A stretch of DNA of 64,000 bases, taken from assembly GCA_964588685.1 (NCBI GenBank), contig CAZPQG010000002.1, forward strand, positions 35,481 to 99,480. The letters run 5' to 3'. A model generated the notes under the pieces. The model did not search any database. It was not told the DNA's origin and saw only the letters and a program-made list of their open reading frames with translations. The stretch is from an uncultured Pseudomonadales bacterium. GTDB taxonomy: Bacteria > Patescibacteriota > Microgenomatia > UBA1400 > PJMF01. How positions within the stretch are numbered: the stretch's first letter is position 1; each line of letters begins with the position of its first letter. The position numbers and the translations under genes were made by a program. This document shows positions 32,892 to 45,692 of this stretch, piece by piece.

Positions 32892-33392
32892 TTATTTTTT
32901 TAAAAAATCGATGTTAATTTGCTCCACTTTCTCTTGATTATTGAGCTTAATACGAGCAAAAAAATTCTTTTGATGAGCAACTATATGGTCAAATAAATAA
33001 TGCAAATCATCTACCAACTCAAAATCTTGCGTCAATATTTCTTCAGGTTTCAGCCACAGAAATTTACCTTCTCGGCAATCTTTACCAGCCGGTATTTCAA
33101 AACCAGGAACCCGTACTTTAAAAAAAGCGACCAGCCAATCAACTGGATAACCACCGCTGATATGAGCCAAACCACAAAAAACAACCTTCTTTTTTTGAAT
33201 CTCAAATCCGGATTCCTCCTTAATTTCCCGCACTGCTGCCTGCACATATGTTTCATCAGACTCAACTTTGCCTCCCAAACCATTTAAGCGTTGCGCATCA
33301 ACTGCCGCCTCAGCAGAGCGTTGCAGCATTAAATATTTATGTTGGTGATAAAGAAAGACGGTCACTGCAGGCTGCAGCTTACGATTTGTCAT
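32892..33392 (-). CDS. NUDIX hydrolase
   Basis: Nudix box GGKVESDETYVQAAVREIKEESGF. Confidence 0.7.
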   Translation of the reverse strand: MTNRKLQPAVTVFLYHQHKYLMLQRSAEAAVDAQRLNGLGGKVESDETYVQAAVREIKEESGFEIQKKKVVFCGLAHISGGYPVDWLVAFFKVRVPGFEIPAGKDCREGKFLWLKPEEILTQDFELVDDLHYLFDHIVAHQKNFFARIKLNNQEKVEQINIDFLKK

Positions 33393-33449: not shown

Positions 33450-34298
33450 TCACTTTTGGCAGGAAGGGCAATAATATGTCCCTCGATTATTAATTTTAAT
33501 TTTTTTAACTTGACCGCCGCATTCATAGCATGGCTCACCCTCCCGGCCATAAACATATAACTTATCTTGAAATTGACCGGATAAACCATTAACGTCAACA
33601 AATTTATCATCGAAAGTAGTGCCGCCGTGTCTAACAGCCCGCTTCATTAATTTTTTAATAACGGTGACTAAAGTTTCTACTTCTTGTTTACTTAATTTTT
33701 GAGCAGATTTTTGAGGATCAATGCCGGCTAAAAACAATGCTTCTGAGGCATAAATATTACCAATGCCGCCCACAATCTTGCCAATCATGAGAGCTTGTTT
33801 AATAGCAATAGTTCTTCTTTGCAATTTTTCAAATAGATAATCGGGGGTGAATTCAGGATCAATAGCATCAGGGCCGTACTTATCAAATTCTTGTTTAATT
33901 TCTTTTTCCGTCAATACTTTTATCCAACCGAAAATTCTCATATCGTTAAAAAACAATTTCGCGTCAGATTTAAAAGTGATGATAACTCGAGTATGATCGC
34001 TGGGTAAATCCTTAACCCAATCAGCTGTGGGGTGGCCTCCACCTATCCTTAGGTCATTATTAATGAAAATTAATTGACCGGTCATTTTCAAATGAATCAG
34101 CAAATTATATTTTCCTGCTAAATTAATTTTAATTAATTTAGCTTTGCGCGAAACAGCATCAATGCTGTTGCCAACAATCTGTTGAGGCAATCCTTGAAAA
34201 CTCTTTTTTTTCAAAATTTTTACATCATCAATCACTTGCCCCACCAACAAGTCTTCCAAACGGGATTTAACTGTTTCTACTTCCGGTAATTCAGGCAT
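33450..34298 (-). CDS. mutM: Formamidopyrimidine-DNA glycosylase
   Basis: N-terminal MPELPEVE (catalytic Pro2 and Glu3), H2TH region, C-terminal zinc finger CYECG...CPSCQK. Confidence 0.8.
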   Translation of the reverse strand: MPELPEVETVKSRLEDLLVGQVIDDVKILKKKSFQGLPQQIVGNSIDAVSRKAKLIKINLAGKYNLLIHLKMTGQLIFINNDLRIGGGHPTADWVKDLPSDHTRVIITFKSDAKLFFNDMRIFGWIKVLTEKEIKQEFDKYGPDAIDPEFTPDYLFEKLQRRTIAIKQALMIGKIVGGIGNIYASEALFLAGIDPQKSAQKLSKQEVETLVTVIKKLMKRAVRHGGTTFDDKFVDVNGLSGQFQDKLYVYGREGEPCYECGGQVKKIKINNRGTYYCPSCQK

Positions 34299-34360: not shown

Positions 34361-37300
34361 TTAACTTATCCCTCTATGCTGGGGAGATTTAATTAAGCCG
34401 CACTCTTTATATTTTAAACCACTTCCGCAGGGGCAGGGGTCGTTGCGGCCTATCTTAGCTTTCTTATTGCCTTGTCCAGTTTGATTAACTGATCCAGCTT
34501 TTCGGAGGGCACTGGCTAAATCAGAAGATGAACCGTCCACTGACTGAGGTACAGTGGCTCCGGTTGGCGTTTGAGCATCAGCTACTTCTTTAGAAATCGG
34601 TTCATTCACATCTTCTTTTTGGAAATCAGCTCGATCTAACAACTGCTGCGCTGCTGTGGTTAATGTTCTTCGTCTGGAAGGCTGAACTCTAAAAATACGT
34701 CGCGCCACAGTTGATTCAATAGTGCTAATCAAATTATCAAACATTAAAAAAGCTTCTTTTTTGTATTCTGATAAAACCGTATCTTTATCGCCTCTTAACC
34801 AGATTCCCTCTTTTAAAGCTTGCATTTGATCTAAATGATCAATCCATTTTTCATCAATAGTTGACAAAATCACATAACGTTCTAAGCGGCGCATAGTTTC
34901 ATCAGGAAGCTTGCTTTCCTTAGCCTGATAAACGTCTTTTACTAAATTAAGAAGTTCTTGGTAAATATTTGCCTCATCCGATTGAGTCTGAGTTTGAAGT
35001 AATTTTTCTTCAATGCGCTGTTGAGAATTTTCGTCAAAGGGCACAATCTTAGCAAACTCATTTACTAAATCCTCAATGTCTTCTTCTGCCGCTGTCGAAT
35101 CGTCCGGCAAATACTGATTGTAGATTGCTTTAGTTTCATCTCGAATATACTCTAATATTTCATCTTTAACTGAAGCTGCCTTTGCATCAATTAAGTTATC
35201 AGGTTTGACAGTTGTCTCAGCAATACTTTCTTGTTTTTTTGCAGTCGTTGTTGCTTCGTCCTCATCCTTAGCTGGCTTTTCTTCAACTTCATGAGTGGAT
35301 AATTCTAGCAGTCGTCTTCTCCGTTGATAAATAATTTCTCGATGCTTATTCATAACATCATCAAAATCAACCAATCGTTTTCTTTGATCAAAAAAGAAAG
35401 TTTCTACTTTGACCTGCGCGGACTCAATAGACTTGCTAATCATTTTATTTTCGATCGGTTGGTCTTCTTCAATATTGAGAAAATCCATCACTTTTGAAAT
35501 CTTATCGCCTCCAAAAATACGCATAATCTCATCTTCCAAACTCACAAAAAATTGAGAAGCTCCCGGATCACCCAGCCTGCCTGAACGCCCTCGCAGCTGA
35601 TTATCAATCCGCCTTGCTTCGTGGCGTTCCGAACCAATCACAAATAAACCGCCCGCTGCAATCACTTCCTGATTACGCTTTTTCCACTTATTAAGCTCTT
35701 TTTGATATTTAGCCAAATCATAATTGGCCGGATTAATAGAAGGCGGTAGATCGATATCTTGATATTTTTCGGGTACGTCAATTTTTTTATCGGTCGGATT
35801 TTCTTTGCGAAAATCTTTTAATTCAGGCTTAGCGCCGCCTAAAATAATGTCTACTCCCCGGCCAGCAATGTTGGTAGCTACAGTAATAGCTCCTTTTTTA
35901 CCGGCATCAGCAATAATAAAAGCTTCTTTTTCATGATTCTTTGCATTTAAAATATTGTGTTTGACGCCTTTGCGCTGTAAAAAATTAGACACAATTTGAT
36001 TATTTTCAATAGAACGGGTTCCAATCAGAATTGGTTGACCGGTTTCATTAATTTTTTCTACCTTTTTTGCTATAGCGGAAAATTTAGCTGACTGAGTTTT
36101 ATAAATTACATCAGGTTTATCATCACGAATAATTGGTTTATAGGTCGGAATAGCTACAACATCTGTCTCATAAATTTGATTAAACTCATCAGCTTCTGTA
36201 ACAGCAGTACCGGTCATGCCGGACAACTTGTCATACATTCTAAAATAATTCTGAATGGAAATAGTGGCCAATGTTTTTGACTCTTGTTGAATTGGTACGC
36301 CTTCTTTAGCTTCAATCGCTTGATGCAAGCTGTCACTGTAGCGGCGGCCATACATTAAACGTCCGGTATGTTCATCCACAATAATAACTTCATTGTCACG
36401 CACAATATATTCTTTATCTCTTTGAAAAACAGCCATGGCTTTTAAAGCAGTTTCAATATGATGAATCACTGAAAAATCTTCTTCATAAAGATTGTCAACT
36501 CCTAATTTTTTTTCCAATCTTTTAACACCTAAATCCGTTAACATCGCCGTTTTAGCTTTTTCATCAATTTTATAATCATGATCTTTAGAAAGAGTCTTCA
36601 CTAATTTGGCATATTCATAATATTTATCAGTTGGTTCAGTATCAGGAGCGGAAATAATTAAAGGGGTTCGGGCTTCGTCAATTAAAATAGAGTCTGCCTC
36701 ATCAATAATGGCAAAGTGGTGGGCAAAGTCACGACGCTGGGCTAATTTATCCAGCGACTGCACCATGTTGTCGCGCAAATAATCAAACCCAAATTCATTA
36801 TTAGTGCCGTAAGTAATGTCAGCTAAATAAGCTTCCTGTCTGGTTATATTTTGAAAATGTTCCAACCGCTCATCGCCTCTGGACTCACTGTCAATATCAG
36901 GATTGTAAAGTTTAGATTCATCATGAACAATAACAGCTGCCGAAACATTTAAAAAATCATAAATCGGACCCATCCAGCCCACACCAATCTCGGCTAGATA
37001 ATCATTAACAGTCACTAAATGACAGCCTTTGCCTAATAAAGAATTTAAATAGAGGGGACAAGTGACAGTTAAAGTTTTACCTTCACCAGTTTTTTGCTCG
37101 GTAATCATACTATTGTGAATAGCTATGCCGGCTAAAAGCTGCACATCAAAATGACGCATGCCCGTGATACGCCGTGATACCTCCCTTACAGTGGCAAAGG
37201 CTTCAGGTAAAAGGTCATCTAAAATTTCCTTTTCAGCAGCTTTCTCTTCTTCAATGGTTTGAGGATTAATTGTTGCTAATTGTTTTTTAATTCTTTTTTT

Positions 37301-37444
37301 AAACTTATCAGTTTGAGCCGTCAGCTCTTCATCAGTTAATTTTCTGATAGATGGTTCCAAAGCATTAATTTCATCAACAATAGCCTGATATTGATTAAGG
37401 TAACGCTGGTTTGTATCAAAAATATTTTGTACGAATTTAAGCAT
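34361..37444 (-). CDS. secA: Preprotein translocase ATPase SecA
   Basis: DEAD motor (GEGKT Walker A, DEADS-like), PPXD, and a C-terminal zinc-binding tail CPCGSG..C. Confidence 0.9.
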   Translation of the reverse strand: MLKFVQNIFDTNQRYLNQYQAIVDEINALEPSIRKLTDEELTAQTDKFKKRIKKQLATINPQTIEEEKAAEKEILDDLLPEAFATVREVSRRITGMRHFDVQLLAGIAIHNSMITEQKTGEGKTLTVTCPLYLNSLLGKGCHLVTVNDYLAEIGVGWMGPIYDFLNVSAAVIVHDESKLYNPDIDSESRGDERLEHFQNITRQEAYLADITYGTNNEFGFDYLRDNMVQSLDKLAQRRDFAHHFAIIDEADSILIDEARTPLIISAPDTEPTDKYYEYAKLVKTLSKDHDYKIDEKAKTAMLTDLGVKRLEKKLGVDNLYEEDFSVIHHIETALKAMAVFQRDKEYIVRDNEVIIVDEHTGRLMYGRRYSDSLHQAIEAKEGVPIQQESKTLATISIQNYFRMYDKLSGMTGTAVTEADEFNQIYETDVVAIPTYKPIIRDDKPDVIYKTQSAKFSAIAKKVEKINETGQPILIGTRSIENNQIVSNFLQRKGVKHNILNAKNHEKEAFIIADAGKKGAITVATNIAGRGVDIILGGAKPELKDFRKENPTDKKIDVPEKYQDIDLPPSINPANYDLAKYQKELNKWKKRNQEVIAAGGLFVIGSERHEARRIDNQLRGRSGRLGDPGASQFFVSLEDEIMRIFGGDKISKVMDFLNIEEDQPIENKMISKSIESAQVKVETFFFDQRKRLVDFDDVMNKHREIIYQRRRRLLELSTHEVEEKPAKDEDEATTTAKKQESIAETTVKPDNLIDAKAASVKDEILEYIRDETKAIYNQYLPDDSTAAEEDIEDLVNEFAKIVPFDENSQQRIEEKLLQTQTQSDEANIYQELLNLVKDVYQAKESKLPDETMRRLERYVILSTIDEKWIDHLDQMQALKEGIWLRGDKDTVLSEYKKEAFLMFDNLISTIESTVARRIFRVQPSRRRTLTTAAQQLLDRADFQKEDVNEPISKEVADAQTPTGATVPQSVDGSSSDLASALRKAGSVNQTGQGNKKAKIGRNDPCPCGSGLKYKECGLIKSPQHRGIS

Positions 37445-37688: not shown

Positions 37689-38942
37689 TTATAAATACTT
37701 TTGTAAAATTTTTGGAATTTTTACTGTTCCATCCGCCTGTTGGCAATTTTCCACAATAGCAGCCAATAAGCGGGGCGTTGCTAAAACCGTATTATTTAAA
37801 GAATAAGCAAATTTCGTCTGACCATCTTTAGCTTGATATTTAATTTTTAAACGTCTTGTTTGAAAATCATGAAAAGAACTTGCGCTGTGAGTCTCTCGAT
37901 AACAATTTTGTGACGGAAACCAAGTTTCTAAATCATACTTTTTATGCTGACCAGCACCCATGTCACCGCTGCTCATTAAAACCATTTGATATGGCAGACC
38001 CAATTGCTGCAGTAGTTCTTCTGAAAAGCTAATCATTTTTTTATGCCAGCGGCTCGAAGCTTCTTGATCGGCCTTGGTTAAAACCACTTGTTCCACTTTA
38101 TTAAACTGATGAACTCTAATAACGCCTTGCGTGTCTTTGCCGTGAGCGCCAACTTCTCTACGATAACAAGGCGATAACCCTGCCAACTTAATCGGCAAGT
38201 CATCTTCAACCAAAGTTTCATTCATATAATAAGAAGTCAAAGCTACTTCAGCCGTGCCTGTTAAATATTTATTGTCCTGGGTTTGATAATGATCTTCCTT
38301 ACCCCAAGGAAAAAAGCCGGTGCCAATCAACGCCGCTTGCTTTACCATAACCGGCACAGTCATGGCTGTAAAACCTTGATCTACCATATAATCTAAAGCT
38401 AAACGCAAAATAGCTTGTTCTAACAACACTGCTTTATTTTTTAAAAAGTAAGAACGAAAGCCACCAATCTTAACTCCTCTTTCTGTGTCCAGCCAATCTA
38501 ATTGCTCCATAATTTGATCATGGGGGAGAGGAGTAAAATCAAACTGCGGTAGTTCGCCAACTTGCTTCATAATTTTATTGCCTGACTCATCAGCGCTTAT
38601 CGGCACGTCATCGGCAGGAATATTAGGAATTTGCAACATTAACTGCTCAAACTCTTGCTGTACTTCTTTAAACTCAGGTTCAACTTTTTTTAATTCATTT
38701 TTAAGCTGACGACCTTTTTCAATCAATTCCTCATCCGGTTTTGAGCCTTGGTGCACCTGCTTTTCTACCTGTTCGGCATTATTGTTAATGCGGCGTCTAA
38801 TCTCATCTACCTGTTGTTTTAAAAAGCGTCGCTTCTGATCTATCTCTAATAAATCATCCACCACTTGCGGCTCTAATTGTTTATCTTGACAAGCCTGTTT
38901 AACTACTCCCGGATTATTTCTAATAAAATTAAGATCAAGCAT
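37689..38942 (-). CDS. serS: Seryl-tRNA synthetase
   Basis: N-terminal coiled coil and class II motifs (FRSE-type motif 2, GSGLAxGR-type region). Confidence 0.85.
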   Translation of the reverse strand: MLDLNFIRNNPGVVKQACQDKQLEPQVVDDLLEIDQKRRFLKQQVDEIRRRINNNAEQVEKQVHQGSKPDEELIEKGRQLKNELKKVEPEFKEVQQEFEQLMLQIPNIPADDVPISADESGNKIMKQVGELPQFDFTPLPHDQIMEQLDWLDTERGVKIGGFRSYFLKNKAVLLEQAILRLALDYMVDQGFTAMTVPVMVKQAALIGTGFFPWGKEDHYQTQDNKYLTGTAEVALTSYYMNETLVEDDLPIKLAGLSPCYRREVGAHGKDTQGVIRVHQFNKVEQVVLTKADQEASSRWHKKMISFSEELLQQLGLPYQMVLMSSGDMGAGQHKKYDLETWFPSQNCYRETHSASSFHDFQTRRLKIKYQAKDGQTKFAYSLNNTVLATPRLLAAIVENCQQADGTVKIPKILQKYL

Positions 38943-38960
38943 ATCTAATTACATCAATAA

Positions 38961-41081
38961 TTAAGTGTTATTTTTTTGGATAAAGAGATCAATCAAAAAT
39001 TCTAAATGTTCATCTGCATCTTCCTCAATTAAGTCAAAACCTTTATTAATATCGTCTCTGCTGATGTTAGCAGCAAACGACTTATCGCCCAATTTCTTTT
39101 TAACTTTGCTTGGCTTCATACCCACAAAATCTTTGGGCCTCATCAGAGAATAGGCATATAAAAACCCACTTAATTCATCGCAAGCAAAAAGATAACGATC
39201 AAGCATTGCGCTGGGCTCAACTTTGGTCCTCAAAGGGGCATGAGCTCTCACGGCTTCAATAAGTTCTAAGGGATAATCAGTTAACAACTCTTCGGCTGCC
39301 TTTAACGGGTGCTCATCCGGATATTTTTCCCAATCTAAATCATGCAATAAGCCGGTTTGATACCATAATTCCGGATTTTGTCCTAGTTTCTCAGCATAAG
39401 CTGCTAAAGCTTGAGCAGTCATCAAACAGTGGTGTCTTAAATTTTTATTTTTTATATATTGATGCATTAATTTTGTAGATTCCTCTCGAGTAGGAAGCTC
39501 GACTGCAGCTGAAGCAGCGGCGGTGTTACTAGAGCCAGCTTGCGCATCCTCCTTCTGTTTAACTGCCTTCTCTTGCCCTTGATCAGTTTTTTGATTATTG
39601 ATTTTTTCCGGCTGACGAGGAGCTTGTTGTGAAAACTCAGGTTTTAAAGTTGGAAATGCAATTACTTCTTTAATTGACCAAGTATTAGTTAAAAACATTA
39701 CTAACCGATCAATGCCCATGCCTATTCCTCCTAAAGGCGGCAGGCCGTATTCTAAAGCTCTTAAAAAATCTTCATCAGTCGGATGAGCCTCTTCGTCTCC
39801 GGCTCTCATCTGCTGCTGTTCATTTTTAAAAAGATTTCTCTGATCAATCGGATCTACTACCTCGCTCCAGCCGTCAGCTAACTCTTTGCCGCCGACATAG
39901 GCTTCAAAGCGTTCACAATACCAATCATCTTCGCGGTGAACTTTAGCCAGCGGGCTGACATCACGAGGATAATCAATAATCCATACCGGTTGAATTAATT
40001 TATCTGTGACTAATTTGTCAAACAAATTAAACATTGCTTTGCCACGACTATAACCGCCCGGCAAGTCAATTTCATGTTCAGTTAAAAGTTGTTTGACGGC
40101 TTGATCATCCAACTGTTTAAAATCAATCTCAGCAAACTCTTGCAAAGCATCAATCATCTTAATACGCGGCCAGCTGCCGCTTAAGTCAATACTTGTTTCA
40201 CCGACCATTATTTCATGACTGCCATGAATAACCTGCGTCAGCTCTTGAATCATTTCTTCAGCTATATCCATCATAGTATGATAATCAGCGTAAGCCTGAT
40301 ACCATTCAATCATAGTAAATTCAGGCTGGTGAGTTTGGTCAATACCTTCATTTCTAAAATTACGGGCAATTTCAAAAATCCGTTCATAACCACCTACAAT
40401 CAATCTTTTTAAATATAATTCCGGGGCAATTCGCAAATAAAAATCACTGTCCAAGGCATTCATATTGGTGGAAAACGGACGGGCATTAGTGCCGCCGTAT
40501 ATAGCCTGTAGGACAGGTGTTTCCACTTCAGTGTAATTGTGTTTTTCCTGTAAAAATCGACGCATTTCTTTGAGTATTTTCCAGCGCGTATCTAAAATTT
40601 GGCGGACATCGTCATTAATCAAAATATCTACATATCTTTGACGAAACCGCACCTCTTTATCTTCTGCTGCATTCCATTCAGTCGGAATTGGCCGCAAAGC
40701 TTTGCCTAAAAACTTAAATTTTTCTGCTTGAATAGTTAATTCACCCGCCTTTGTTTTAATGACTTCTCCGCTTACTCCTAGAAAGTCTCCCGGATCTATA
40801 TGCTGCAAAAGTTCAAATTGTTTTTTTGACAACTCGTCTTGGCGAAGCATTACCTGTATAACAGCTGTCGAATCTTTAAGATCTAAAAAAACTACCTTAC
40901 CGTGTGGTCGTTTCGCCATGATTCGACCTGAAGTTTTGGCTTGACCACCCACACCAGTTCCAATAAGCTCTTCAATAGTTTGTTGTTTATCAAAGCTATA
41001 GGGATGAATATCAACGCCTTGATCTTGCAAAGCTTTCCGCTTTTGGATTTTAGCTTTAATAGCAGATTCTAATCTTGACAT
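38961..41081 (-). CDS. lysS: Lysyl-tRNA synthetase (class II) fused to a C-terminal HD-domain phosphohydrolase
   Basis: Residues ~1-480 carry LysRS motifs (FRNEG, GGIGMGIDRL). They are followed by a Q/K-rich linker and an HD core LRHH...LLHDLD (roughly 38961..39550). Confidence 0.85.
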   Translation of the reverse strand: MSRLESAIKAKIQKRKALQDQGVDIHPYSFDKQQTIEELIGTGVGGQAKTSGRIMAKRPHGKVVFLDLKDSTAVIQVMLRQDELSKKQFELLQHIDPGDFLGVSGEVIKTKAGELTIQAEKFKFLGKALRPIPTEWNAAEDKEVRFRQRYVDILINDDVRQILDTRWKILKEMRRFLQEKHNYTEVETPVLQAIYGGTNARPFSTNMNALDSDFYLRIAPELYLKRLIVGGYERIFEIARNFRNEGIDQTHQPEFTMIEWYQAYADYHTMMDIAEEMIQELTQVIHGSHEIMVGETSIDLSGSWPRIKMIDALQEFAEIDFKQLDDQAVKQLLTEHEIDLPGGYSRGKAMFNLFDKLVTDKLIQPVWIIDYPRDVSPLAKVHREDDWYCERFEAYVGGKELADGWSEVVDPIDQRNLFKNEQQQMRAGDEEAHPTDEDFLRALEYGLPPLGGIGMGIDRLVMFLTNTWSIKEVIAFPTLKPEFSQQAPRQPEKINNQKTDQGQEKAVKQKEDAQAGSSNTAAASAAVELPTREESTKLMHQYIKNKNLRHHCLMTAQALAAYAEKLGQNPELWYQTGLLHDLDWEKYPDEHPLKAAEELLTDYPLELIEAVRAHAPLRTKVEPSAMLDRYLFACDELSGFLYAYSLMRPKDFVGMKPSKVKKKLGDKSFAANISRDDINKGFDLIEEDADEHLEFLIDLFIQKNNT

Positions 41082-41188: not shown

Positions 41189-41665
41189 TTATTCAACCTT
41201 TTTAATAATATATACAATTTCTCCCGACGGAGCCGAAACTGTAACTTCGTCTCCTTCTTTTTTATCAAGCAACGCTTTTCCCAATGGAGAGACAACAGAA
41301 ATTTTACCCTCTTCCACATTACCTTCAAATTCTCCCACAATGGTAATTTTTTTCTTATTATTTTTATTATTTTTAGGATAAGTTGTTACCTTGCTGCCAA
41401 CGCCAATTTTGGTCTTGCTGCGCGTTTTATTAACAACTTCAGCTCTCTTTAATACTTCTTCGATTTCAGCTATTCTGGCATCAATAATGTCTTTTTCTTC
41501 TTTAGCATTTTGATACTCTGTGTTTTCACTTAGATCCCCCTTATCGCGAGCCTTTGAAATTTTTTCAACCACCTCAGGCAGCTTCTCGTCCACAAGTTCT
41601 TTAAGCTCTGCTTGTAGGTCCTCATAGCCCTCTTTAGTTAATTGAATTTTATTTTTTGTTGGCAT
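41189..41665 (-). CDS. greA: Transcription elongation factor GreA
   Basis: Coiled-coil N-domain with acidic tip and FKBP-like C-domain consensus. Confidence 0.85.
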   Translation of the reverse strand: MPTKNKIQLTKEGYEDLQAELKELVDEKLPEVVEKISKARDKGDLSENTEYQNAKEEKDIIDARIAEIEEVLKRAEVVNKTRSKTKIGVGSKVTTYPKNNKNNKKKITIVGEFEGNVEEGKISVVSPLGKALLDKKEGDEVTVSAPSGEIVYIIKKVE

Positions 41666-41812: not shown

Positions 41813-43813
41813 TTATTCCCCTAAAACTAGGACTGCATCAAATTCTTCCGTCGGATCTTCAGTTCTAATTTCCTCAGAAAAAACCAGTTCCTGTTCTAAA
41901 TCTTCAGCCATTGTCTCTAGCAGAAGATCATCACGTTCAGCCATTAATAAATAAAAACCCGGTTCATAGGTATCAACTGCATTTTTAGCTTCAACTTCAC
42001 CATAACCTAAGTCTAATAATTCTGTAGAAATTTCTCCGGCATAACCTGCTTGAGTGGTGGCATTTACCACTCTTATTGAATATTCGGAGCGATCAATTTC
42101 CGGCTCCGGAGTAGGGGAGGGCTCTTCTTCAATTGTTTCAGGCTCTTCAACTTCAGTCGTTGTTTCCTGATCACCGGTCACCGGGGTCCGAATAGTGTCT
42201 GGTTGAGACAATTTTAATACTCCATAGCCAACGCCGATGCCAACCGCAACAGTTAATGCAAATGCTCCAAAGCCAACCAAAATCATTTTTAACAGGCCGC
42301 TGGTGCCATCATCATTTTTAATAGTTCTTTTCATGGTAGGCTGCTCCTTTGACTTTAAATTTTGTTTAGCTGATAATTTTTTTTCTTTACGTTTACTAGT
42401 GAATTTACTTAGGTCAACAGCAAACATATCACCATCCTCTTCTTTCTTTTTTTGATCAGATTGATCTACTTCTTTACTTTCAGCTGCCTCTTGAGCGCTG
42501 TCTTTAATTACTGCAGTTGATGCTGAAGCTGCTGCTGGCGCTGCTTGAGCAGCCGGCTGATAAACTCGTTTGCCAGCTTTGTCAGCTGATTTTTCCTCAG
42601 TGCCGCTGTCTGCTTGAGTCGCTCTTTCTGCTTCGTTTTTCTTAGATTGTTTTTCTTCTTGTGTTGAGATTGCCGTTTCTGGTTCCGGTTCTTCTTTTTT
42701 ATCATTTGTTTCTTGAGCTTGGCCCCCAGTTTTTTCAGCAACTGCTGCATCGTCTAGATCTATGGACGATTCAGGCTCAATTTCAACATCAGCCCTTTCA
42801 GTATCAGCAGCGTTCTTTTCATCGTCTGACATTGCTGCTGATTTTTCGCCCGGCTTAGGCAATTGGCCGGCAGCTCCATTTTTTTCTTCAGGAACTTTTT
42901 TTGCAGCATCAATTTCAACTGCTGCTTTTTTAAATTGATCTTTAATTTCAGCTGAAACTTTTATCTTTTCTCGGTTAAATTCAGGAATCTCAAATTCATC
43001 AATACTAATCGTACGCATGGCAATAGTCATAGCTTCTGCCACATAATTCGGCAATTCATCGCCATTCTCTTTTTGAACCAATTGTTGAATCGGTAAAATA
43101 TCATCCAACTTCTCTTTTAATTCATCTTCTACTGCCTCATTGGATAATAAATAAGCCGTTTGCAGGCTAGGCTCAACGCCTTTCAAGGTTTTAATTGCTT
43201 CTACAAACCGATCAATATTTTTTATGGAATCCACCATCGGCTGGTCTACACCAATATAATGTTTAGCCATAAATAAATTTTCTCCCAGCTGCAACAACGA
43301 AACAGAAGGTTCGAGAGAAATGATAGATTTAATAGTCCAGCTTAAGGGGTAAATTTTATTAAAAACAACTTTTTTACTTTCAAAAGCGTATTTAAGAGGA
43401 GCCAATATAGAATGCTGAACTGTTGATAATTGAACTTTAAAACTACCTTTATACTCACTTAAAATAAAAGTTTCGATTAAGTGCGAATCTGGAGAAATAT
43501 GTAAGCTAGGGATAACTTCTTCTGTTAAATGCTCTTTTACTTGAGCTTCATTTTCTTTTTCCAGATCAATAATAGTATTGGTAAACATTTCATCAGCCAA
43601 AACTATTTCAATTTCACCTTCCTCGAGTTTATCTTCAACCCTGGCTGCTAATTTAACAATGTTCTCAGGAATAAGCTGCCCGTCTTTAATGAGCTTACCA
43701 TTAAATTGCTTAAAACTTTGGATTGAAAAATTATGAGGTTTTTTGCCAGGTAAAAATTCAGCTAAATAAGCTAAATTTGGCAAAATGTATAAAAGTTTTT
43801 GGGTATCAAGCAT
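41813..43813 (-). CDS. Hypothetical bitopic protein: ~330-aa cytoplasmic domain, ~200-aa acidic/Lys-rich disordered linker, single TM, C-terminal LytR_C-like domain
   Basis: TM at LLKMILVGFGAFALTVAVGIGVGYGVL. C-terminal IRVVNATTQAGYAGEISTELLDLGYGEV...YLLMAER resembles the LytR_C/DUF4115 consensus. N-domain unassigned. Confidence 0.35.
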   Translation of the reverse strand: MLDTQKLLYILPNLAYLAEFLPGKKPHNFSIQSFKQFNGKLIKDGQLIPENIVKLAARVEDKLEEGEIEIVLADEMFTNTIIDLEKENEAQVKEHLTEEVIPSLHISPDSHLIETFILSEYKGSFKVQLSTVQHSILAPLKYAFESKKVVFNKIYPLSWTIKSIISLEPSVSLLQLGENLFMAKHYIGVDQPMVDSIKNIDRFVEAIKTLKGVEPSLQTAYLLSNEAVEDELKEKLDDILPIQQLVQKENGDELPNYVAEAMTIAMRTISIDEFEIPEFNREKIKVSAEIKDQFKKAAVEIDAAKKVPEEKNGAAGQLPKPGEKSAAMSDDEKNAADTERADVEIEPESSIDLDDAAVAEKTGGQAQETNDKKEEPEPETAISTQEEKQSKKNEAERATQADSGTEEKSADKAGKRVYQPAAQAAPAAASASTAVIKDSAQEAAESKEVDQSDQKKKEEDGDMFAVDLSKFTSKRKEKKLSAKQNLKSKEQPTMKRTIKNDDGTSGLLKMILVGFGAFALTVAVGIGVGYGVLKLSQPDTIRTPVTGDQETTTEVEEPETIEEEPSPTPEPEIDRSEYSIRVVNATTQAGYAGEISTELLDLGYGEVEAKNAVDTYEPGFYLLMAERDDLLLETMAEDLEQELVFSEEIRTEDPTEEFDAVLVLGE

Positions 43814-44676: not shown

Positions 44677-44840
44677 ATCTACTGCTCGCTCACTTTTCAA
44701 GTTCGCTCCCAGCATTACTCGGGTGCTGCGCGTATTGTTAATTGGAACTCCGCACTCGACGGCTGAACCGTTGGTTTCTCATTCAACACCAAGCGACTTA
44801 CAAAATTAGTAACTTAGCTAAAGCTAAGTTATAAATTTTG

Positions 44841-44914
44841 TGAGCCCGGTGGGAGTCGAACCCACGACGCACAGCTTAAAAGGCTGTCGCTCTGACCACC
44901 TGAGCTACGGGCCC
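44841..44914 (-). tRNA. tRNA-Lys (anticodon TTT)
   Basis: Reverse complement GGGCCCGTAGCTCAGGTGGTCAGAGCGACAGCCTTTTAAGCTGTG...GTGGGTTCGACTCCCACCGGGCTCA. Confidence 0.8.
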
Positions 44915-45122: not shown

Positions 45123-45692
45123 TTAAGCTCGAGATACATATGTTCCATTTTCAGTGTTAATCAGTAAAGTTTCGCCCTTTTCAATAAACAGAGGAACTTG
45201 CACCACCAAACCAGTTTCCATTTTCACCGGCTTAGTACCAGCACTGCTTCGATCTCCGGTTACAGCTTCCCTAGCTTCAGCTACCGTCATTCTCACTCTG
45301 GACGGCAAACTGACTGCTAACGGCCGATCTTTATAAATTAATAAATGCACTTTGAGCTCCGGCGCTAGAAAATCTTTTTTATTACCTAACACTGCCGCAG
45401 AGACTTCTATTTGTTCATAGCTGTTAGGATCCATAAAAACCAATTTGTCGTTAGAGGCATACAAAAACTGCATCTCTCTTGACCTAACACTAATTTGTTC
45501 TATTTCGTCGTGAGACTTAAAAACATGCTGAATAAAACTGCCTGTTTCTAAATTCTCCAACTTTGTTCTCGTAAAAGCGGAGCCTTTACCGGGAGAGACA
45601 AACTTTTTTTTAACTACCCTATAGGGTTGATCGTGATGCAGCAAATACATTCCTCGTTCAATATTACCTGCTTTGATTTTTGACATGGTCAA
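45123..45692 (-). CDS. efp: Elongation factor P
   Basis: KOW-like N-domain with the VSPGKGSAF loop and two OB domains; 189 aa. Confidence 0.85.
   Translation of the reverse strand: MTMSKIKAGNIERGMYLLHHDQPYRVVKKKFVSPGKGSAFTRTKLENLETGSFIQHVFKSHDEIEQISVRSREMQFLYASNDKLVFMDPNSYEQIEVSAAVLGNKKDFLAPELKVHLLIYKDRPLAVSLPSRVRMTVAEAREAVTGDRSSAGTKPVKMETGLVVQVPLFIEKGETLLINTENGTYVSRA

What the first reader, a model, noticed from the sequence alone, without database searches (positions are those of the whole stretch)
38961..41081. Lysyl-tRNA synthetase fused to a C-terminal HD-domain phosphohydrolase
The 706-aa product is a complete class II LysRS (~480 aa) joined through a Q/K-rich linker to an HD core (LRHH...LLHDLD...). 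LysRS is the classical cellular source of Ap4A and other dinucleoside polyphosphates. HD-domain enzymes such as YqeK-type hydrolases degrade Ap4A, and others hydrolyse (p)ppGpp or dNTPs. A covalent fusion would couple synthesis and removal of a LysRS by-product or alarmone in one polypeptide. Such fusions are rarely discussed.
Basis: partly seen in the sequence, partly recalled or inferred. Interest (0 to 1): 0.65.

Follow-up and report, generated by a model that had tools for sequence, protein, structure and literature searches.

The report
LysRS with a tethered HD hydrolase
This gene from a candidate-phyla (Patescibacteria) bacterium really does encode a lysyl-tRNA synthetase joined by a floppy linker to a metal-dependent HD phosphohydrolase, and the same hydrolase stays next to or fused with the lysine synthetase in related genomes even where that synthetase belongs to the unrelated class I, which points to an unstudied partner function.

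Summary
Window 38961-41081 (-) is one uninterrupted 706-aa ORF with three parts: a complete class II LysRS (residues 1-482), a disordered, non-conserved linker (about 483-528), and an HD domain (529-706). It is not a frameshift: at least 120 protein clusters of 673-734 aa share this architecture.

The HD domain belongs to an uncharacterised HD subfamily with no solved structure. All six ligands of the dinuclear H..HD..H..H..D motif are invariant in 87 of 87 relatives. YqeK, the Ap4A hydrolase, is the nearest named family, but only at sub-threshold scores, so this domain is not a YqeK member.

In related Microgenomates the operon GreA-LysRS-HD-SerRS-SecA is conserved:
- 21 species genomes carry a class I LysRS followed by a separate HD gene.
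- 13 carry a class II LysRS fused in frame to HD.
- The two states interleave on a SecA+SerRS tree with 100% bootstrap, and the HD follows the species tree.

Other forms exist: a second class II LysRS lineage fused to HD, HD at the N-terminus of LysRS, LysRS-NUDIX-HD, LysRS-DUF2000-HD and MazG-HD.

My best reading, which is inference only, is a LysRS-dedicated nucleotide phosphohydrolase, most likely for Ap4A-type by-products. No paper in the held library describes it.

The parts
38961..41081 (-). Whole lysS-HD fusion ORF (706 aa plus stop codon)
   Evidence: Continuous ORF. The same architecture occurs in at least 120 protein clusters.
39636..41081 (-). Class II lysyl-tRNA synthetase module, residues 1-482. 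It comprises an N-terminal helix, the OB anticodon-binding domain (residues 51-123, nt 40713-40931) and the catalytic core (residues 141-479, nt 39645-40661).
   Evidence: Pfam PF01336 and PF00152. NCBIfam NF001756 scores 611 bits against a cut-off of 468. Catalytic-core residues, including R243-N244-E245-G246 and G452/R459, are invariant across 71 fused proteins.
39498..39635 (-). Low-complexity Q/K/E/A-rich linker, residues 483-528
   Evidence: pLDDT is below 50 for residues 478-524 and pTM is 0.57. Length and sequence are not conserved among fused homologues.
38964..39497 (-). HD-domain phosphohydrolase module, residues 529-706. It starts at the conserved LPxRE motif that also begins the stand-alone proteins.
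   Evidence: Pfam HD and NCBIfam HDIG pass their cut-offs. It is 60-70% identical to stand-alone 175-187-aa proteins. The AlphaFold model has pLDDT 95.5 and is all-helical.
39429..39431 (-). Codon of H551, the first metal ligand
   Evidence: Invariant in 87/87 and 71/71 sequences.
39339..39344 (-). Codons of H580-D581, the HD doublet
   Evidence: Invariant in 87/87 and 71/71 sequences.
39309..39311 (-). Codon of H591, an extra histidine of the dinuclear motif
   Evidence: Invariant in 87/87 sequences. Motif logic from PMC8177086.
39240..39242 (-). Codon of H614, the second extra histidine
   Evidence: Invariant in 87/87 sequences.
39177..39179 (-). Codon of D635, the last metal ligand
   Evidence: Invariant in 87/87 sequences.
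41189..41665 (-). greA, the conserved upstream neighbour in the operon
   Evidence: ORF. Conserved upstream of LysRS in 30 or more related loci.
37689..38942 (-). serS (seryl-tRNA synthetase), the conserved downstream neighbour. It starts 18 nt after the lysS-HD stop codon.
34361..37444 (-). secA, a conserved member of the same gene string

Best explanation
The gene encodes a bifunctional protein. A fully functional housekeeping class II LysRS carries, on a disordered tether of about 45 residues, a catalytically competent HD phosphohydrolase with a two-metal site (H551, H580/D581, H591, H614, D635). The HD module belongs to a distinct, uncharacterised HD subfamily. In Microgenomates-type Patescibacteria this subfamily is a dedicated partner of LysRS, either encoded immediately downstream of lysS or fused to it, whichever class of LysRS the genome uses.

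The most likely job (inferred, not shown) is hydrolysis of an adenylylated nucleotide made at the LysRS active site. The leading candidates are Ap4A and related dinucleoside polyphosphates, cleaved as YqeK cleaves them. A less likely candidate is released lysyl-AMP or a non-cognate aminoacyl-AMP. Tethering would keep the hydrolase at 1:1 stoichiometry and high local concentration next to the source.

Shown here: the architecture, its conservation, the intact ligand set, the gene linkage to both LysRS classes, several distinct fused arrangements (at least three ways of joining HD to LysRS), and the partner domains NUDIX and MazG.
Inferred: metal content, substrate and benefit.
For: Architecture and conservation:
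- ORF and domain assignments.
- At least 120 fused clusters.
- Six ligands plus D583, E636, K662, K663 and R675 are invariant in 87/87 HD sequences and in 71/71 fused proteins.
- The linker is disordered and unconserved.

Linkage to LysRS:
- GreA-LysRS(class I)-HD-SerRS-SecA in 21 species genomes. Across all 27 class I loci read (these plus 6 from protein look-ups), HD starts 3-66 nt after the lysS stop in 25.
- 13/13 species loci with a class II LysRS at this position are fused in frame.
- There is also a class II plus separate HD state (L087).
- A second class II LysRS lineage, only 36-41% identical, is fused to the same HD.
- HD occurs at the N-terminus of LysRS in a different genomic context, on 9 contigs.
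- Among the best 150 hits of an exhaustive HMM search of 1.84 billion proteins, I scanned 20 of the longer ones. The 10 longest are all LysRS fusions, 4 more are truncated LysRS fragments, 1 is MazG-HD, and 5 have N-terminal extensions without a Pfam match.

Nucleotide substrate:
- The H..HD..H..H..D motif diagnoses a dinuclear site, and among HD phosphatases it is known only in YqeK (PMC8177086).
- The nearest named models are YqeK-type: NF005519 hits 90/90 members and TIGR00488 hits 36/90, all sub-threshold.
- YqeK structures are among the top Foldseek hits.
- Family members are fused with NUDIX (P0478) and MazG (P0391) nucleotide pyrophosphohydrolases.
- LysRS is the classical Ap4A source (PMC10148737).
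Against: - No activity was or could be measured here.
- The family fails the YqeK model cut-offs. Its HD-to-H spacing (10 residues, against 32 in YqeK) differs, so substrate transfer by homology is weak.
- Foldseek cannot separate YqeK from PgpH, YpgQ, SAH or the non-catalytic GlyRS-beta HD domain.
- The link to class I LysRS is not predicted by class II Ap4A chemistry. From my own knowledge, class I LysRS needs tRNA to activate lysine. I found no paper on Ap4A synthesis by class I LysRS.
- About 46 of 80 species loci, mostly Balneolales, carry the HD gene with no LysRS nearby and no conserved neighbours. The enzyme therefore does not need LysRS.
- Other appendages at the same LysRS position are tRNA-directed, not nucleotide-directed: B3_4, tRNA_bind, and DUF2000, which I recall as PTH2-like.
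Confidence: 0.45

Rival explanations
1. The role is directed at tRNA. The HD module would work on or with tRNA-Lys. It could bind the acceptor arm, as the HD domain of bacterial GlyRS beta does. It could act as a 3'-end phosphodiesterase or phosphatase, as the HD domain of bacterial CCA-adding enzymes does. Or it could be part of a trans-proofreading set together with B3_4 and DUF2000 modules.
For: - The best Foldseek hit is the E. coli GlyRS beta HD domain (7eiv_C, E 4.6e-3). That domain is implicated in acceptor-arm binding and in the tRNA transfer step (PMC8464048).
- tRNA-Lys and Lys-tRNA-Lys are among the things class I and class II LysRS share, which fits the class-independent linkage.
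- The same C-terminal position of Patescibacterial LysRS carries B3_4, tRNA_bind or DUF2000 in other lineages, and class I LysRS-B3_4 is followed by HD.
- An invariant basic patch (K662, K663, R675) is present.
- Some members weakly match the model of the archaeal tRNA (cytidine(56)-2'-O)-methyltransferase family, NF009343, over model positions 163-258 of 339.
Against: - In GlyRS beta the HD doublet is degenerate (Ser-Lys, PMC8464048), whereas here all six metal ligands are invariant. That argues for catalysis, not mere binding.
- Partner domains elsewhere in the family (NUDIX, MazG) act on free nucleotides.
- Most family members outside Patescibacteria are stand-alone with no tRNA-related neighbours.
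- The Foldseek preference for GlyRS beta over YqeK is marginal (4.6e-3 against 1.2e-2).
Confidence: 0.2
2. There is no mechanistic coupling. The HD enzyme would be a general nucleotide house-cleaning hydrolase (NTP/dNTP, (p)ppGpp, cyclic dinucleotide). Its gene happens to sit in a very stable operon, and in streamlined CPR genomes neighbouring genes fuse by stop-codon loss without functional meaning.
For: - The whole string GreA-LysRS-HD-SerRS-SecA is conserved, so HD is as constantly next to SerRS as to LysRS.
- The linker is unconserved and disordered, and AlphaFold gives no confident inter-domain placement (pTM 0.57).
- Balneolales use the enzyme without any LysRS link.
- The MazG-HD fusion suggests house-cleaning.
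Against: - Fusions are always to LysRS and never to SerRS, although serS follows within about 20 nt.
- The fused arrangement takes several distinct forms: two LysRS2 lineages, the N-terminal orientation in an unrelated genomic context, and forms with NUDIX or DUF2000 inserted.
- The linkage survives replacement of the LysRS class at least four times.
Confidence: 0.2
3. The HD module is a non-hydrolytic dinuclear HD enzyme (an oxygenase like MIOX, PhnZ or TmpB, or a lyase like Ddi2) acting on lysine or a lysine-derived metabolite.
For: The same H..HD..H..H..D motif is used by the HD-domain oxygenases (PMC8177086). The link is to the lysine enzyme specifically.
Against: - No fold or sequence affinity to MIOX or PhnZ appears among the top 50 Foldseek hits. 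Ddi2 is at rank 29 with E 0.16.
- Patescibacteria are mostly anaerobic fermenters (general knowledge).
- The partner domains are nucleotide hydrolases.
Confidence: 0.04
4. This is an artefact: two separate genes (lysS and an HD gene) joined by a frameshift or assembly error in this window.
For: Stand-alone HD genes immediately downstream of lysS exist in relatives, including one class II case with a 2-nt gap (L087).
Against: - At least 120 independent fused clusters, 13/13 fused species loci, and a 45-residue in-frame linker with no stop.
- No start codon lies at the position equivalent to the start of the stand-alone proteins (sequence read).
Confidence: 0.01

Closest known systems
YqeK (COG1713 / TIGR00488), the symmetrical Ap4A hydrolase of Gram-positive bacteria
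   Same: - Small (about 180 aa), all-helical HD protein.
- Same extended six-ligand H..HD..H..H..D motif, which diagnoses a dinuclear site (PMC8177086).
- Nearest named HMMs.
- Among the top Foldseek hits: 8wmy, 2ogi, 2o08, 3ccg.
- YqeK also occurs fused to another enzyme. From my own knowledge, NCBIfam model NF005519 stands for NadD-YqeK fusions.
   Different: - Scores are far below the family cut-offs, and the window's HD domain does not hit TIGR00488 at E<=1.
- TM is only about 0.45-0.5.
- Spacing from HD to the next His is 10 residues, against 32 in YqeK.
- The signature is HDLDW rather than the YqeK signature.
- The genomic partner is LysRS rather than NadD and the ribosome-associated genes.
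- Activity is unknown.
HD domain of the beta subunit of bacterial heterotetrameric GlyRS
   Same: An HD-fold domain built into an aminoacyl-tRNA synthetase. It is the best Foldseek hit (7eiv_C).
   Different: - In GlyRS the catalytic HD doublet is lost (Ser393-Lys394 in E. coli), and the domain is an internal tRNA-binding or allosteric module rigidly packed in the subunit (PMC8464048).
- Here the ligands are invariant, and the domain hangs on a disordered tether.
- Here the domain also exists as a free protein.
Synthetases with appended or partner hydrolases for their own products. From my own knowledge these include LysRS with HINT (hydrolysis of Lys-AMP and sensing of Ap4A), editing domains, and trans-editing factors such as the B3_4 domain of PheRS beta, YbaK and AlaX.
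   Same: A hydrolase is kept physically or genetically next to a synthetase. In Patescibacteria the same LysRS terminus alternatively carries B3_4, DUF2000 or tRNA_bind.
   Different: Known editing modules are ester hydrolases acting on aminoacyl-tRNA. An HD metallophosphohydrolase has not been described in that role, and HINT is a histidine-triad protein, not an HD protein.
Gene displacement of LysRS class I and class II. From my own knowledge, this is the classical case of non-orthologous displacement.
   Same: Two unrelated LysRS classes replace each other among close relatives.
   Different: Here the replacement happens in one and the same operon slot, repeatedly within one candidate phylum, while an accessory HD gene stays in place.

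Membership tests
Class II lysyl-tRNA synthetase (lysS) | Full-length match to the curated LysRS model above its cut-off | tested here: met
   NF001756 scores 611.1 bits (cut-off 468) and TIGR00499 scores 522.8 bits (cut-off 427.6) over residues 7-482.
Class II lysyl-tRNA synthetase (lysS) | N-terminal OB anticodon-binding domain plus a class II catalytic core with conserved core residues | tested here: met
   PF01336 at 51-123 and PF00152 at 141-479. R243-N244-E245-G246, G452 and R459 are invariant in 71 fused proteins.
Class II lysyl-tRNA synthetase (lysS) | Lysylation of tRNA-Lys | not testable with these tools
   Needs an aminoacylation assay.
HD-domain metallophosphohydrolase superfamily (PF01966) | Profile match above the gathering score | tested here: met
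   30.3 bits against 22. HDIG TIGR00277 scores 30.2-33.2 bits against 27.6.
HD-domain metallophosphohydrolase superfamily (PF01966) | H...HD...D metal ligands present | tested here: met
   H551, H580-D581 and D635 are invariant in 87/87 sequences.
HD-domain metallophosphohydrolase superfamily (PF01966) | All-helical HD fold | tested here: met
   The AlphaFold model has pLDDT 95.5 and ten helices. 49 of the 50 listed Foldseek hits are HD-domain proteins, though all are weak.
Dinuclear HD subgroup (H..HD..H..H..D) | Two additional conserved histidines between HD and the last D | tested here: met
   H591 and H614 are invariant in 87/87 sequences. Criterion from PMC8177086.
Dinuclear HD subgroup (H..HD..H..H..D) | Two bound metal ions | not testable with these tools
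   Needs metal analysis or a crystal structure.
YqeK Ap4A hydrolase (TIGR00488 / COG1713) | Match to the YqeK model at or above its cut-off | tested here: not met
   The window's HD domain has no TIGR00488 hit at E<=1. Only 36/90 stand-alone relatives hit it, with a best E of 7.7e-4. The best E for NF005519 is 5.2e-8, and the window's own domain scores 16-17 bits against a cut-off of 315.
YqeK Ap4A hydrolase (TIGR00488 / COG1713) | Close structural superposition | tested here: inconclusive
YqeK Ap4A hydrolase (TIGR00488 / COG1713) | Symmetrical hydrolysis of Ap4A to 2 ADP | not testable with these tools
   Needs an enzyme assay.
HD phosphodiesterases (PgpH, HD-GYP) | H..HD..H..HH..D motif with a His-His doublet | tested here: not met
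   The sequence reads R-A-H614-A-P, a single His. Motif from PMC8177086. I did not look for the GYP triad of HD-GYP.
Small alarmone hydrolase / Mesh1-type (p)ppGpp hydrolase | Sequence or fold membership | tested here: not met
   No alarmone-hydrolase model appears among the NCBIfam hits at E<=1. Foldseek TM is 0.40-0.45 and E>=0.047.
GlyRS-beta-type HD domain | Degenerate HD doublet, internal to the synthetase subunit | tested here: not met
   Here the HD doublet is intact and invariant and the domain is tethered, not integrated. GlyRS features from PMC8464048.

The most novel reading that the evidence does not exclude
The HD enzyme would be an obligatory, previously unrecognised accessory of lysyl-tRNA synthesis in Microgenomates. 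It would be a metal-dependent phosphohydrolase that proofreads or clears an adenylate-level product (lysyl-AMP, non-cognate aminoacyl-AMP or Ap4A) common to both LysRS classes. That would explain why it has been kept at LysRS through repeated class I/class II swaps and is found joined to LysRS in at least three different ways. It would be the first HD-type quality-control module of an aminoacyl-tRNA synthetase.
Probability: 0.15. Interest if true: 0.85.

Novelty: new variant of a known kind. Interest (0 to 1): 0.6.

Why it matters
From general knowledge, LysRS is the textbook source of Ap4A, and it is a synthetase without an editing domain. How cells contain its side products is only partly understood: ApaH, YqeK, Nudix and HINT each play a part.

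This locus offers a natural Rosetta-stone case. One small HD hydrolase is fused to LysRS or translationally coupled with it across many genomes. It occurs in both orientations and with both of the unrelated LysRS classes. That makes a concrete, cheap experiment possible: full-length protein against HD-dead protein, assayed for Ap4A, Lys-AMP and tRNA. The result would assign a function to an HD subfamily of at least 179 clusters (50% identity, E<=1e-30) that has no structure and no annotation.

The locus also documents repeated alternation of class I and class II LysRS in a single operon slot. That is of interest for how essential genes get displaced.

Tried and rejected
- A phmmer search and a profile search of the HD domain against all PDB sequences found no HD protein at all at E<=10. 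The family has no recognisable solved relative by sequence.
- Neighbourhoods of the stand-alone HD genes in Balneolales are variable and gave no functional clue. In L036 a probable thymidine kinase and a probable nucleoside transporter, judged by eye from their N-terminal sequences, lie beside the gene. This arrangement is not conserved in the other three loci.
- A PDB sequence search with the DUF2000 insert of P0516 found nothing. The PTH2-like nature of DUF2000 therefore remains my recollection only.
- Five literature searches for a LysRS-HD fusion, for synthetase-HD combinations in CPR/Patescibacteria, or for Ap4A synthesis by class I LysRS found no paper on them.
- My first bootstrap tree script timed out. 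I redid it with my own distance code.
- I looked for an internal start that could express HD separately. An AAGGAGGA string lies in the linker DNA (39547-39554, minus strand), but the nearby ATG is out of frame, and there is no ATG, GTG or TTG at the position equivalent to the stand-alone start. I rejected this idea.
- I could not resolve whether class I plus free HD or class II-HD fusion is ancestral, nor whether the switches are in-situ displacement or differential loss. Both LysRS types correlate only weakly with the species distances.
Full report
**1. What is in the window**

Window 38961..41081 on the minus strand is one ATG-initiated ORF of 706 codons with no interruption.
- Pfam places an OB anticodon-binding domain at residues 51-123 and the class II (D/K/N) catalytic core at 141-479. 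It places an HD domain at 550-637, scoring 30.3 bits against a gathering score of 22.
- The curated NCBIfam LysRS model NF001756 scores 611 bits (cut-off 468) over residues 7-482. The only HD-type model that passes its cut-off is the generic HDIG domain.
- The genes around it, all on the same strand, are greA (41189-41665), serS (37689-38942, starting 18 nt after the fusion's stop codon), secA (34361-37444), fpg and a NUDIX gene.
- G+C content of about 35-44% across the region, and the source names of the homologues, point to a Patescibacteria (CPR) genome of the Microgenomates, Woesebacteria or Pacebacteria type.

**2. The fusion is real and common**

- A search with the whole protein returned at least 120 clusters (90% identity) of 673-734 aa. 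They cover 99-100% of the query at 57-70% identity, and nearly all carry the precomputed Pfam set PF01336 + PF00152 + PF01966.
- In 13 of 13 species-representative genome loci where a class II LysRS sits at this position, LysRS and HD share one frame without a stop.
- An alignment of 71 fused proteins keeps the LysRS core residues and the HD residues invariant.
- AlphaFold2 on that alignment gives two confident domains (pLDDT above 90), a segment at 478-524 with pLDDT below 50, and pTM 0.57. The HD domain is therefore on a flexible tether with no fixed docking.
- The linkers of different fused proteins share neither length nor sequence.

**3. What the HD domain is**

- Its closest relatives are free-standing proteins of 175-187 aa, 60-70% identical. 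They begin at the same LPxRE motif that starts the domain in the fusion.
- An exhaustive HMM search of 1.84 billion representative proteins finds 179 clusters (50% identity) at E<=1e-30 and 3796 at E<=1e-3.
- No PDB sequence is detectable with phmmer or a family profile, even at E<=10.
- The domain model (pLDDT 95.5, ten helices) gives only weak Foldseek hits, with best E 4.6e-3 and TM about 0.5. These are the E. coli GlyRS beta HD domain, YqeK (8wmy, 2ogi, 2o08, 3ccg), SP1746, PgpH, YpgQ and small alarmone hydrolases.
- H551, H580, D581, H591, H614 and D635 are invariant in 87/87 sequences drawn from fused, LysRS-adjacent and unlinked genes. So are D583, E636, K662, K663 and R675.
- According to the HD-superfamily review, the extended H..HD..H..H..D motif diagnoses a dinuclear site. 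Among the phosphatases it is known only in YqeK, while phosphodiesterases have an HH doublet that is absent here (PMC8177086).
- A scan of 90 stand-alone members against NCBIfam shows that, apart from generic HDIG, the most consistent weak hits are the model NF005519 and YqeK itself. NF005519, which from my own knowledge stands for NadD-YqeK fusions, is hit by 90/90 members (best E 5e-8). TIGR00488 is hit by 36/90 (best E 7.7e-4). All are far below the cut-offs.
- Conclusion: this is a separate, uncharacterised dinuclear-type HD subfamily whose nearest named relative is YqeK. It is not a YqeK member.

**4. The link to LysRS does not depend on LysRS class**

This is the main new result.
- The contigs that encode three different stand-alone relatives (P0038, P0088, P0001) all show GreA, LysRS, HD, SerRS, SecA in that order. 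There the LysRS is the class I enzyme (PF01921, about 550 aa), which is unrelated in fold to the class II enzyme of the window.
- I scanned one genome per species with the HD profile and ran a tblastn census. Of the 80 loci kept:
  - 21 have class I LysRS followed by a separate HD ORF.
  - 13 have class II LysRS fused to HD.
  - 46 have HD with none of these neighbours. These are mostly Balneolales, plus a few loci with other labels, including Saccharibacteria, Woesebacteria, Dojkabacteria and Chitinophagales.
- Over all 27 class I loci read (the 21 above plus 6 from protein look-ups), HD begins 3-66 nt after the lysS stop in 25.
- On a SecA+SerRS neighbour-joining tree (1383 columns, 100 bootstraps), fused taxa are nested inside class I taxa with 100% support three times: (window,(L012,L045)), (L017,(L001,L013)) and (L028,(L040,L064)). 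A fourth case, L010, sits in a class I clade supported at 100%; its placement with L029, L030 and L068 inside that clade has 81%.
- HD divergence follows SecA+SerRS divergence (Spearman 0.62, slope 1.03). Sharing a LysRS state has no effect. For the window, L017 and L028, the most similar HD belongs to the nearest class I neighbour.
- The HD gene is therefore inherited with the operon, while the LysRS in front of it has changed class at least four times. Whether this is in-situ displacement or differential loss is not resolved.

**5. More ways of joining HD to LysRS**

- L010 carries a class II LysRS that is only 36-41% identical to the other fused LysRS domains, which are 56-79% identical among themselves. 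Its HD domain is nevertheless a normal family member at 60-70% identity.
- Among the 120 closest relatives of this second LysRS lineage, 44 carry HD, 7 carry DUF2000, 7 carry B3_4, 1 carries tRNA_bind and 61 are about 500 aa.
- One of the short ones (L087) has the HD gene as a separate ORF 2 nt after lysS. Another (L088) has no HD nearby.
- Of the best 150 hits of the exhaustive search, I scanned 20 of the longer ones.
  - The 10 longest are all class II synthetase fusions. They include LysRS-NUDIX-HD (P0478, 935 aa) and LysRS-DUF2000-HD (P0367, whose full-length cluster member is P0516, 833 aa, on 8 contigs). They also include HD at the N-terminus followed by LysRS (P0432 and P0509, 715 aa, on 9 contigs, in an unrelated genomic context). 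I checked three of these architectures against the curated LysRS model, and all three pass.
  - Of ten mid-length hits, four are truncated LysRS fusions, one is MazG-HD, and five have unassigned N-terminal extensions.
- No fusion to SerRS or to any other synthetase was seen, even though serS is the immediate downstream neighbour.

**6. Mechanism**

Shown:
- an active-looking LysRS;
- an intact dinuclear-type HD site under strong purifying selection;
- a disordered tether;
- genetic coupling to LysRS of either class;
- several distinct fused arrangements;
- partner domains (NUDIX, MazG) that act on nucleoside polyphosphates.

Inferred: the HD module hydrolyses a nucleotide species generated by LysRS. 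Ap4A-type dinucleoside polyphosphates are the leading candidates, for three reasons. LysRS is their classical source (PMC10148737). YqeK is the only HD phosphatase with this ligand set. YqeK is also the nearest named family. Lysyl-AMP or non-cognate aminoacyl-AMP is a second candidate and would fit the class-independent linkage better.

Several things count against overconfidence. There is no assay. The family fails the YqeK models. The structural similarity is only marginal and does not discriminate. The link to class I LysRS is unexplained by class II chemistry. The enzyme exists without LysRS linkage in Balneolales.

The main rivals are a tRNA-directed role and a general house-cleaning enzyme whose fusion has no mechanistic meaning. 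The tRNA-directed role draws on the GlyRS beta precedent (PMC8464048) and on the B3_4, DUF2000 and tRNA_bind appendages at the same position.

**7. Comparison with what is known, and novelty**

HD phosphohydrolases, synthetase-appended domains and LysRS class displacement are each known. I found no paper in the held library describing a LysRS-HD fusion or this HD subfamily. Public records label the fused proteins simply as lysine--tRNA ligase and the free ones as HD or HDIG domain proteins.

I rate it a new variant of a known kind: a catalytically intact HD hydrolase as a dedicated LysRS partner. The repeated class I/class II alternation in one operon slot is an added, independently interesting observation. 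Interest is moderate to high (0.6). The biology is testable with simple biochemistry and would annotate a sizeable orphan family, but the function is still inferred.

Noticed in passing
L001 3338-4996, L004 3340-4998 and L005 3311-4963, compared with window 38961-41081: Within one candidate phylum the operon slot between greA and the HD gene holds either a class I or a class II LysRS. At least four state changes are supported by a SecA+SerRS tree (three nested placements at 100% bootstrap; for the fourth, L010, the enclosing clade has 100% and the inner placement 81%). The window's closest relatives by that tree, L012 and L045, use class I.
   Followed up: partly
L011 3611-6004; also L018, L025, L039 and L064: In these loci the class I LysRS is about 800 aa because it carries a C-terminal B3_4 domain (PF03483, the fold of the PheRS-beta editing domain). 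The HD gene follows directly. Pfam confirmed this only for L011; the other four were found by tblastn with the L011 extension.
   Followed up: partly
Proteins P0271, P0280, P0316, P0317, P0335, P0356, P0360 (DUF2000); P0321, P0325, P0328, P0329, P0341, P0346, P0354 (B3_4); P0342 (tRNA_bind): A second Patescibacterial class II LysRS lineage carries alternative C-terminal appendages in place of HD. This suggests a general habit of decorating LysRS with accessory modules.
   Followed up: no
Proteins P0478 (935 aa), P0516 (833 aa), P0509 (715 aa; locus L089 4001-6148) and P0391 (310 aa): Rare architectures of the same HD family: LysRS-NUDIX-HD, LysRS-DUF2000-HD, HD-LysRS (HD at the N-terminus, in a different genomic context) and MazG-HD.
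   Followed up: partly
window 32892-33392 (-) and 33450-34298 (-): A stand-alone NUDIX hydrolase gene lies directly after fpg (formamidopyrimidine-DNA glycosylase) at the end of the same gene string. It could be a MutT/MutM-type pair. It is not obviously connected with the LysRS-HD gene.
   Followed up: no
window 44840-44914 (-) and 45123-45692 (-): tRNA-Lys(UUU) lies about 3.8 kb upstream of lysS-HD on the same strand, next to the EF-P gene. The proximity of the cognate tRNA gene may be coincidental.
   Followed up: no
window 41813-43813 (-): A 666-aa ORF with a long acidic and lysine-rich low-complexity centre, a predicted membrane segment and a C-terminal LytR_C domain sits upstream of greA. 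In several of the relatives read (for example L001, L004, L005 and L006) the ATP synthase genes (gamma, beta and epsilon subunits) occupy that position instead.
   Followed up: no
window 39547-39554 (-): A Shine-Dalgarno-like AAGGAGGA lies inside the linker-coding DNA, about 50 nt before the first conserved HD codon. The adjacent ATG is out of frame, and no in-frame start lies at the position of the stand-alone gene's start. It could be a relic of a former intergenic region, or chance.
   Followed up: partly
L007, L009, L010, L012 and other loci (record titles): Many MAG records that carry typical Patescibacteria operons are titled 'uncultured Pseudomonadales bacterium', and others 'Vitreimonas sp.' or 'Pelolinea sp.'. 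These look like wrong taxonomic labels in the public records.
   Followed up: no
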